A DNA stretch of 60,610 nucleotides, counting the filler, from Dugesia japonica (Eukaryota): NCBI GenBank assembly GCA_001938525.1. It is 6 parts of 6 records of this genome, joined end to end, with 100 filler letters (N's around TTAATTAATTAA, not from the genome) between each part and the next. Parts side by side here need not be neighbours in the genome. Positions count along the whole stretch, not along the records: positions 18,717 to 31,457 come from MQRL01349823.1; 5 more parts are not named here. One strand, 5' to 3'. How positions within the stretch are numbered: the first letter of the stretch is position 1; each line of letters opens with the position of its first letter. Both the position numbers and the translations under genes were made by a program. Under the pieces are notes generated by a model. It made no database searches and was not told the origin of the DNA. It saw only the letters and a list, made by a program, of their open reading frames with translations. Positions 27,740 to 28,751 of the stretch are shown here, one piece after another.

Positions 27740-27918
27740 TTATAAAATATTTGGACAAAAGAAATGATTTACACAATTATTATTTATTTTTAGTACATAT
27801 GAAAAAATATAAAAAATGAAATAATAAAATAATGATAAATATATATCAAATTAAATTAATGTGACTTTTATTTATTATTTTCACCGAATTTATTTTTTAT
27901 CAATTTCCAGATTTATTA
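27740..27918 (+). repeat. ~180-bp direct repeat, left copy (right copy 28530-28710)
   Basis: ttataaaatatttggacaaaa...caatttccagatttatta in both copies, about 6 differences. Confidence 0.95.
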
Positions 27919-28529
27919 TTCTCATAATTAATAATTAATAACAGGCAATAGCAACTGAAAGACATAACGCTTGCCTTGATATTATTGTCAGCAAAATTAA
28001 AACTTCAAATGCTATTATTGAGGTGAATAGAATAAATAAATATATTTCGGATTCTAGGGAAAGATTGGATGTTACAGTAACTAATGTTGAAAAAAAATAC
28101 TATATTTAATTGATGTCAAATGCCCAATAGACTCCAAAAAGAATTTTGAAGAGTATAACAAAAGAAATTTAGAAAAATATGATCTGCTAAAAAATAAAAT
28201 GAAAATAGCGAAGCCTGACTTTGAAGTAGAATTACATACTTGCATAATTGGATCACTTGGCTCAATTCCAGCCAGAACGATCCGAATTCTGGAAAAAATT
28301 ATCGAAAACAAAAATATAATTAAAAGAATATTAAAAGATTGCTCCAAATCAAANNNNNNNNNNNNNNNNNNNNNNNNNNNNNNNNNNNAAACTGGTATTA
28401 GAAACAACAAAATAACTTCCAATATTGAAGAATAGTATTTAAAGAATTGAAGAAACGTGTGTGAGTTCCATGTAGAACCAAAAACAAGATTTTTTGTTAA
28501 TTCAAACTTGTTATATTTAATAAATTTTA
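27919..28529 (+). mobile_element. 5'-truncated RLE-type non-LTR retrotransposon (R2/NeSL-like), endonuclease domain plus 3' UTR
   Basis: TERHNACLDII...RERLDV...LYLIDVKCPID...NLEKYDLL...CIIGSLGSIP gives the RHN, RxD, D and KY motifs of restriction-like endonucleases; AATAAA at ~28519. Confidence 0.88.
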
Positions 28530-28751
28530 TTATAAAATATTTGGACAAAAAAAATGATTTTCACAATTATTATTTATTTTTTAGTACATATGAAAAAATA
28601 TACAAAATGAAAAAATAAAATAATGATAAATATATATCAAATTAAATTAATGTGACTTTTTATTTATTATTTTCACCGAATTTATTTTTTATCAATTTCC
28701 AGATTTATTACTGCGCATCACCGTATATTAATAGTGCTTTATAAAATAACT

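What the first reader, a model, noticed from the sequence alone, without database searches (positions are those of the whole stretch)
27740..28710. 5'-truncated RLE retrotransposon bracketed by an ~180-bp direct duplication (possible giant target-site duplication)
Seen: 27740-27918 and 28530-28710 are ~97% identical. The RLE-derived sequence begins right after the left copy (RHN motif ~40 bp in), and the right copy begins a few bases after the element's AATAAA. The sequences outside the two copies are unrelated to each other. Known: most R2/NeSL-type elements make no or short TSDs; the bdelloid R9 element is a noted exception at 126 bp. Inference: second-strand cleavage ~180 bp from the first nick, close to a nucleosome repeat length, would be an unusual integration mechanism.
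Basis: partly seen in the sequence, partly recalled or inferred. Interest (0 to 1): 0.7.

Follow-up and report, generated by a model that had tools for sequence, protein, structure and literature searches.

The report
Truncated LINE with 180-base duplication
The cut-off tail of a very common jumping gene sits between two near-identical copies of 180 bases of host DNA, which were likely duplicated by cell repair when the element landed (a known, occasional outcome), though a sequence-assembly join of two chromosome versions could give the same picture.

Summary
In detail: 27740-27918 and 28530-28710 are 96.7% identical and bracket the 3' 588 bp (27942-28529) of a decayed restriction-like-endonuclease (RLE) retrotransposon whose end resembles planarian LIN25_SM. 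Public contigs show a high-copy family that stops at 28530, a low-copy block that is not part of it, and an N gap that the family spans at its exact length. The element does not start at the left copy: a 23-bp filler intervenes, patched from the 45 bp upstream of the block, a repair signature. Best reading (0.5): a sporadic long target-site duplication, made when the element's own second nick failed and repair used a distal break; R2 mutants lacking that nick give such duplications. The filler begins with 7 bases lying just upstream of the block, so an assembly join of an empty and an ordinarily filled haplotype (0.22) is not excluded. A programmed or nucleosome-set 180-bp stagger (0.15) has no support from one copy. 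No second copy with both flanks and no proven empty allele was obtained. Precedents: R9 126 bp, Dualen median 900 bp. The scan noted similar 160-430-bp cases in other genomes (unchecked).

The parts
27695..27732 (+). Upstream flank segments that match the 5' filler (27697-27703 and 27726-27732)
27740..27918 (+). Left copy of the duplicated low-copy block (179 bp, 13.4% G+C)
   Evidence: summed contig depth 20-77 (runs X7, X1, X2) in the laid part against thousands inside the element
27919..27941 (+). 23-bp filler: TTCTCAT (same as 27726-27732) plus 16 bp in three pieces that match 27697-27703, each preceded by a 2-base AT microhomology
   Evidence: 22 of 23 letters covered by 7-mers from 27690-27739, reached by 0 of 57,446 other 50-bp windows
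27942..28435 (+). 3' end of the ORF of an RLE non-LTR retrotransposon (RHN, R-x-D, D-x-K motifs), 5'-truncated inside the CCHC region, frameshift near 28090-28100, stop at 28433-28435
   Evidence: tblastn 56-58% to P0001 over 27942-28345, E 1e-38; loose ends
28354..28388 (.). 35-N gap inside the ORF; collinear with the family
   Evidence: contigs of 353 letters lie on 28072-28424; loose-end consensuses from both sides overlap by 25 letters and add up to 35; P0004 aligns 100 aa on 300 bp across it
28436..28529 (+). 3' UTR ending AATAAATTTTA, like the LIN25_SM end
   Evidence: 24 of 27 letters at 28502-28528 match the LIN25_SM end, compared by eye; other copies stop at 28530 (records 13, 14, 29)
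28530..28710 (+). Right copy of the block (181 bp), starting at the family's 3' end (inferred first-nick site)

Best explanation
A 588-bp 3' fragment of a high-copy RLE retrotransposon lies between two copies of a 180-bp host block that was likely duplicated once, at insertion, by host repair after the element probably failed to nick the second strand next to its first nick. Shown: the element's two ends, the low copy number of the block, the coincidence of the right copy's start with the family's end, and a filler that matches DNA just upstream of the block. Inferred: (1) first nick at 27739/27740 and target-primed reverse transcription that stopped after 588 nt; (2) the free end primed several times on the exposed 45 bp upstream of the nick (polymerase-theta-type or RT template jumps), giving the filler; (3) it was finally joined to a top-strand 3' end 179 bp downstream (a host single-strand break, or an end extended on the sister chromatid), and strand displacement through the very AT-rich block copied it twice. 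The length would then be accidental, not a family rule.
For: Depth falls from about 7,600 to about 55 across 28530 in run X7, and alike in X1, X2, X6; 1,729, 1,778, 1,987 and 679 contigs were laid, so the block is host DNA and starts at the family end. Gap collinear. Filler 22 of 23 letters covered from 27690-27739; 0 of 57,446 overlapping 50-bp windows and 0.3% of 10,637 200-bp windows do as well; three pieces carry AT microhomology; patchwork templated insertions under 25 bp are a polymerase-theta hallmark (PMC12426944 passages). Ages are compatible: the copy differs from the family majority at 14-16 of 553 sites; after G+C correction 5.7-6.3 substitutions are expected between the repeats, 4 seen, p 0.25-0.32. 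R2 variants with a poor second nick shift from small deletions to heterogeneous duplications of about 1 kb (PMC13486585 passages). Sporadic long duplications: ZfL2-2, 1 of 25 insertions, 1228 bp; 5'-truncated L1.
Against: One copy only; no second copy with both flanks (searches found none). No contig across 27918/27919 is among the rows shown (tables cut: 843 loose ends, 34 joints, 6,227 pieces not shown). The first 7 filler letters equal 27726-27732 and join the block with no microhomology; read as native flank they give an ordinary insertion with a 7-bp target deletion, the usual R2 join (under 10 bp), so this model needs one extra jump. Without G+C correction the repeats are younger than the element (p 0.02-0.05); the variant table behind that test was cut (48 rows not shown) and I left out two majority rows at the frameshift. 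The R2 experiment is avian R2 in human rDNA with duplications near 1 kb.
Confidence: 0.5

Rival explanations
1. Assembly artefact: the animal was heterozygous for an ordinary insertion (7-bp target deletion, 16-bp filler); the assembly laid the empty haplotype (flank plus block) and then the filled haplotype (TTCTCAT, filler, element, block) in tandem.
For: TTCTCAT lies 8-14 bp upstream of the block (empirical chance 0.02, post hoc) and its 3' end primes the rest of the filler with AT microhomology on a template only 30 bp away. A contig with one uninterrupted, left-like block and non-element sequence or a contig end upstream occurs in 3 of 4 runs at single-copy depth 10.5-12.5; further small alleles of the block are seen. 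The best runs share only about 0.55 of the region's words, so allelic divergence could approach the 3.3% between the copies. Gappy scaffold; the repeats end in a 53-bp identical run, a possible k-mer length.
Against: No N and no overlap at 27918/27919; such joins normally leave a gap or need an overlap (recalled, not tested). None of the 31 N runs in the window has a direct repeat across it. The other local repeat (3391/4352) ends in a 22-bp run, not 53. The left-like contig fits an allelic left copy equally well.
Confidence: 0.22
2. Family trait: this LIN25-like protein nicks the second strand far downstream (fixed ruler as in R9, or next nucleosome linker), so long duplications are its normal product; at tRNA-gene targets this would regenerate a whole gene upstream.
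For: R9 staggers by 126 bp (citing passage). In S6 Fig of PMC4640811 the one LIN15_SM 5' boundary overlaps the 3' boundary by 41 bp (my reading), so the lineage can make long staggers; no 5' boundary is shown for LIN25_SM. Unchecked scan notes give 159, 172, 195, 200, 217 and 430 bp for RLE elements elsewhere.
Against: LIN9_SM is blunt and NeSL-1_TV deletes 4 bp in the same figure (my reading). The site is not a tRNA or other RNA gene. The multi-jump filler suggests that no ready top-strand end was at hand. A 13% G+C block with A/T tracts is a poor nucleosome substrate (recalled). The scan's lengths are selected by what readers notice.
Confidence: 0.15
3. Real but two-step: an ordinary insertion with a 7-bp deletion, then a tandem duplication of 27726-27918 by template switching or joining between an empty and a filled sister or homolog.
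For: Explains TTCTCAT as native flank; the uncorrected age test makes the repeats younger than the element.
Against: Needs a later break within 7 bp of the element's 5' junction, with no microhomology; corrected ages agree.
Confidence: 0.1
4. The block belongs to the element (3' UTR or terminal repeat) or is an independent dispersed repeat.
For: None beyond adjacency.
Against: Depth at least 100-fold lower than in the element; other copies end at 28530 and go on into other flanks; no third copy in the window.
Confidence: 0.03

Closest known systems
LIN25_SM and the R5/LIN lineage of planarian NeSL-clade elements (PMC4640811: passages, and S6 Fig parts 1-2 of 3 read)
   Same: 3' end matches LIN25_SM at 24 of 27 letters (by eye); no poly(A) tail; C-terminal RLE; LIN25_SM also has non-tRNA sites.
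   Different: This site is not tRNA-like and reads TTAT where LIN25_SM sites mostly read TGAT; the LIN25_SM duplication length is not given in what I read; protein-level identity not testable.
Large target-site duplications of R2 variants deficient in second-strand nicking (PMC13486585, passages)
   Same: RLE protein, end-joined 5' junction, duplication downstream of the first nick.
   Different: Engineered avian R2 in human rDNA, about 1 kb; here a natural, old, single copy of 180 bp.
R9 of Adineta vaga (126 bp; original paper not held, seen only in citing passages)
   Same: RLE element with a duplication over 100 bp.
   Different: R9 is rDNA-specific with a family-wide length; here a non-genic site, one copy, and a templated filler.
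Dualen-4b_cRei (PMC9977147, passages)
   Same: Long duplications flanking LINE insertions.
   Different: Dualen has both RLE and APE; median 900 bp; more than half of its new insertions have over 50 bp.
Sporadic long duplications of L1 and ZfL2-2 (PMC2912911, PMC2666801, bioRxiv 10.1101/2024.12.14.628481; passages)
   Same: Rare long duplications with 5'-truncated copies; extra 5' nucleotides ascribed to template jumps; break-induced replication proposed for 1-10-kb cases.
   Different: APE-type endonuclease, mostly cultured or tumour cells.

Membership tests
RLE non-LTR retrotransposon | C-terminal CCHC/RHN region followed by a PD-(D/E)xK-type nuclease | tested here: met
   RHN, R-x-D, D-x-K in 27942-28351; 56-58% to the C-terminus of P0001, whose residues 1343-1502 align to the R2 C-terminal region in PDB 9nl2. 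The fragment alone hits no Pfam family.
RLE non-LTR retrotransposon | RT domain upstream in the same ORF | tested here: inconclusive
   Lost in this truncated copy; present in relatives P0001 and P0003 (RVT_1).
NeSL clade, R5/LIN lineage | RT phylogeny clustering with R5/LIN | not testable with these tools
NeSL clade, R5/LIN lineage | N-terminal Ulp1 protease (described for nematode NeSL and Utopia-1_TSP) | tested here: inconclusive
   Present in P0001 and P0003 and listed for 12 of 16 hits; not testable in this copy.
LIN25_SM-like | 3' terminal sequence | tested here: met
   24 of 27 letters, by eye.
LIN25_SM-like | Insertion in tRNA-Glu or tRNA-like targets | tested here: not met
   0 tRNA genes in the window, 0 Rfam hits in 26000-31000; the published figure also lists non-tRNA sites.
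Target-site duplication by TPRT | Repeat abuts the element's 3' end and is not element sequence | tested here: met
Target-site duplication by TPRT | Repeat abuts the 5' end, allowing extra nucleotides | tested here: inconclusive
   23-bp filler whose first 7 bp could be native flank; no spanning contig among the rows shown.
Target-site duplication by TPRT | Empty allele with one copy of the block between the two outer flanks | tested here: inconclusive
   An uninterrupted left-like block is seen in 3 of 4 runs, but its downstream flank is not shown.
R9-type programmed long stagger | Same long duplication at most copies | not testable with these tools
   No genome held; no other copy with flanks.
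R9-type programmed long stagger | Specific site in a multicopy gene | tested here: not met
   Low-copy AT-rich block, no RNA gene.

The most novel reading that the evidence does not exclude
This abundant planarian-type LIN25-like family, and RLE elements more widely, routinely finish insertion at a top-strand break one nucleosome repeat or one Okazaki fragment (about 160-220 bp) from the first nick, making chromatin- or replication-set duplications that regenerate tRNA-gene targets; with many hundreds of copies the family would be a ready natural data set for the open question of who makes the second nick.
Probability: 0.13. Interest if true: 0.7.

Novelty: new member of a known kind. Interest (0 to 1): 0.25.

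Why it matters
How non-LTR elements obtain the second-strand break is still called an open question outside R2 (PMC13486585). One old copy adds little: long duplications are documented for RLE, RLE+APE and APE elements. Its value is as a pointer: the family is very abundant, so a long-read assembly would give the length distribution cheaply, and the filler records repeated priming just upstream of the first nick. A peak near 180 bp would matter; a flat tail would be ordinary repair.

Tried and rejected
No whole genome is held. No other copies with flanks: the window, the scan's notes by sequence, metagenome contigs by protein (594 pattern matches, 0 confirmed) and by a 3'-end DNA motif (0), viral contigs (166 matches, 0 confirmed). 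Only 27840-28592 was laid on contigs, so the outer flanks and the middle of the block were not examined and the empty-allele question stays open. Summed contig depth could not be turned into a copy number of the block (overlapping contigs, 80% threshold, filtered records). Target as tRNA or RNA gene: rejected. Block as 3' UTR or dispersed repeat: rejected. N gap as the mis-join point: rejected. The second RLE element (50927 onward) has its 5' side cut by a linker gap and shows no long flanking repeat. The R9 paper is not held. Searches (listings) found no paper giving a duplication length for LIN25_SM; Repbase entries could not be seen and may state it. (listings; passages of PMC5932605) gave no paper tying duplication length to nucleosome repeat or Okazaki length. 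A homolog search for the gag-like frame beside the second local repeat found nothing.

Full report
Observation. The window is AT-rich eukaryotic DNA (13-34% G+C) with many gaps. 27740-27918 and 28530-28710 align end to end with 4 substitutions and 2 one-base indels, 96.7%; the score is 293 bits against at most 35.6 in 30 simulations. The outer flanks are unrelated and the block has no third copy in the window.

The element. 27942-28097 and 28091-28351 are two frames of one broken ORF, 56-58% identical to the C-terminus of P0001 (E 1e-38). P0001 and P0003 are about 1,530-aa proteins with Ulp1 protease and RT domains, and P0001's closest solved structures are R2 proteins, including the C-terminal nuclease region. 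The last 27 bases before the terminal A match the 3' end of planarian LIN25_SM at 24 positions (by eye; S6 Fig of PMC4640811). That paper places the LIN families with R5 in the NeSL clade (passages). I call the element LIN25-like; the RT tree could not be made with named members. A flatworm host agrees with unchecked notes on this genome.

Public contigs (27840-28592 laid on 4 of the 12 listed runs, from 3 studies). 679 to 1,987 contigs per run lie on the stretch, nearly all on the element. Summed depth is in the thousands from about 27944 to 28530, and 20-119 in the block parts for X7, X1 and X2 (lower in X6). The family continues upstream of 27942 into sequence that reads like the zinc-knuckle region of P0001, so this copy is 5'-truncated there. 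Other copies stop at 28530 and go on into other DNA. The block is therefore host DNA, and the right copy starts at the family's end. The 35-N gap is spanned collinearly by contigs and by P0004, so it is not a break in the element. In X7, X1 and X2 one contig holds an uninterrupted block at single-copy depth; it is left-like with one extra difference, and no element lies upstream of it. Its downstream side is not shown, so it may be an empty allele or an allelic left copy.

The 5' junction. Between the left copy and the element lie 23 bp. 22 of them are covered by 7-mers from the 50 bp upstream of the block; 0 of 57,446 other overlapping 50-bp windows do so, and 0.3% of 200-bp windows. The filler is TTCTCAT (same as 27726-27732), then AAT, TAATAAT and TAATAA, all from 27697-27703 and each preceded by a shared AT. 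Short patchwork insertions copied from break flanks are described as a polymerase-theta hallmark (PMC12426944 passages); template jumps by the RT are the other proposed source (PMC2666801 passages). This ties the 5' junction to the block's left edge, the inferred first-nick site. It also opens a second reading: if TTCTCAT is native flank, the insertion is an ordinary one with a 7-bp target deletion, and the left copy was placed in front of it by an assembler or by a later exchange. Against the assembler reading: no N or overlap at the junction, and no direct repeat across any of 31 N runs. For it: no microhomology at that junction, several alleles of the block, and runs that share only about 0.55 of the words.

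Age. The copy differs from the family majority at 14-16 of 553 sites, mostly at G/C (two rows at the frameshift left out; the table was cut). Scaled to the block's composition, 5.7-6.3 substitutions are expected between the repeats and 4 are seen (p 0.25-0.32); unscaled, 9-10 are expected (p 0.02-0.05). This is compatible with one event but weak, and it assumes both copies come from one haplotype.

Mechanism. Most likely (0.5): nick at 27739/27740, short cDNA, no proximal second nick, repeated priming upstream of the nick, then joining to a top-strand end 179 bp downstream and strand displacement through a block that melts easily (13.4% G+C, lowest 5% of the window). The direct precedent is experimental: avian R2 variants with a compromised second nick shift from deletions under 10 bp to heterogeneous duplications of about 1 kb, which the authors suggest arise from host single-strand breaks (PMC13486585 passages). 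Break-induced replication is proposed for large L1 duplications (bioRxiv passages). Rivals: haplotype mis-join 0.22, programmed or chromatin-set stagger 0.15, later tandem duplication 0.10, element-borne block 0.03.

Comparison with what is known. R9 gives 126 bp and R8 and R4 give 9 and 13 bp (PMC6895275 passages); Dualen-4b gives a median of 900 bp; ZfL2-2 gave 1,228 bp in 1 of 25 insertions. In the planarian lineage the published boundaries read as 41 bp for LIN15_SM (one 5' boundary) and blunt for LIN9_SM, with none shown for LIN25_SM (my reading). The scan's unchecked notes list RLE cases of 51, 159, 172, 195, 200, 217 and 430 bp in other genomes, most of them filed as sporadic; the bunching at 160-220 bp is a lead only. 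The R9 paper and Repbase entries were not seen and may bear on this; of PMC4640811's supplements I read only parts 1-2 of S6 Fig.

Verdict. A real feature of the sequence, an element of a known kind, and an insertion scar of a known kind if the junction is confirmed by reads. The nucleosome-scale cleavage idea is untested and not needed. Interest 0.25.

Noticed in passing
window 3391-3520 and 4352-4482: A second local direct repeat (about 120-130 bp, 94%) around an AT-rich stretch, a primer-binding-site-like motif and a gag-like frame of a Ty3/gypsy remnant (labels recalled); the right copy seems to lie inside gag, so it does not look like a target duplication. A homolog search found nothing.
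   Followed up: partly
window 50927-53220: A second, different decayed RLE element with RT and nuclease frames (27-44% to P0001); its 5' part is cut by a linker gap.
   Followed up: partly
window 9865, 18617, 31458, 41650, 50827: Five identical 100-bp linkers (44 N, TTAATTAATTAA, 44 N): artificial joins, so sequences across them need not be neighbours.
   Followed up: no
window 31093-31331: 44-bp inverted repeats, 98% complementary, 151 bp apart: MITE-like.
   Followed up: no
window 9965-10056, 11457-11627, 18786-19077, 43302-43540, 44120-44348, 50664-50820: Several partly related fold-back repeats; possibly the Penelope end fragments noted elsewhere in this genome, not tested.
   Followed up: no
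window 28966-29312 and 60218-60539: A 72%-identical inverted dispersed repeat in the right flank.
   Followed up: no
family contigs on window 28140-28292: An internally deleted copy (151-bp skip with 3 shared letters) in 4 of 4 runs, and many other deleted copies.
   Followed up: no
PMC4640811 S6 Fig: LIN15_SM boundaries imply a 41-bp duplication in tRNA-Arg (one 5' boundary); not mentioned in the main-text passages I saw.
   Followed up: partly
window 57664-57990 and 15450-15725: An exon-like frame that resembles an inactive rhomboid (recalled; no Pfam hit) and a Tc5-type transposase DNA-binding fragment (Pfam E 3e-8).
   Followed up: no
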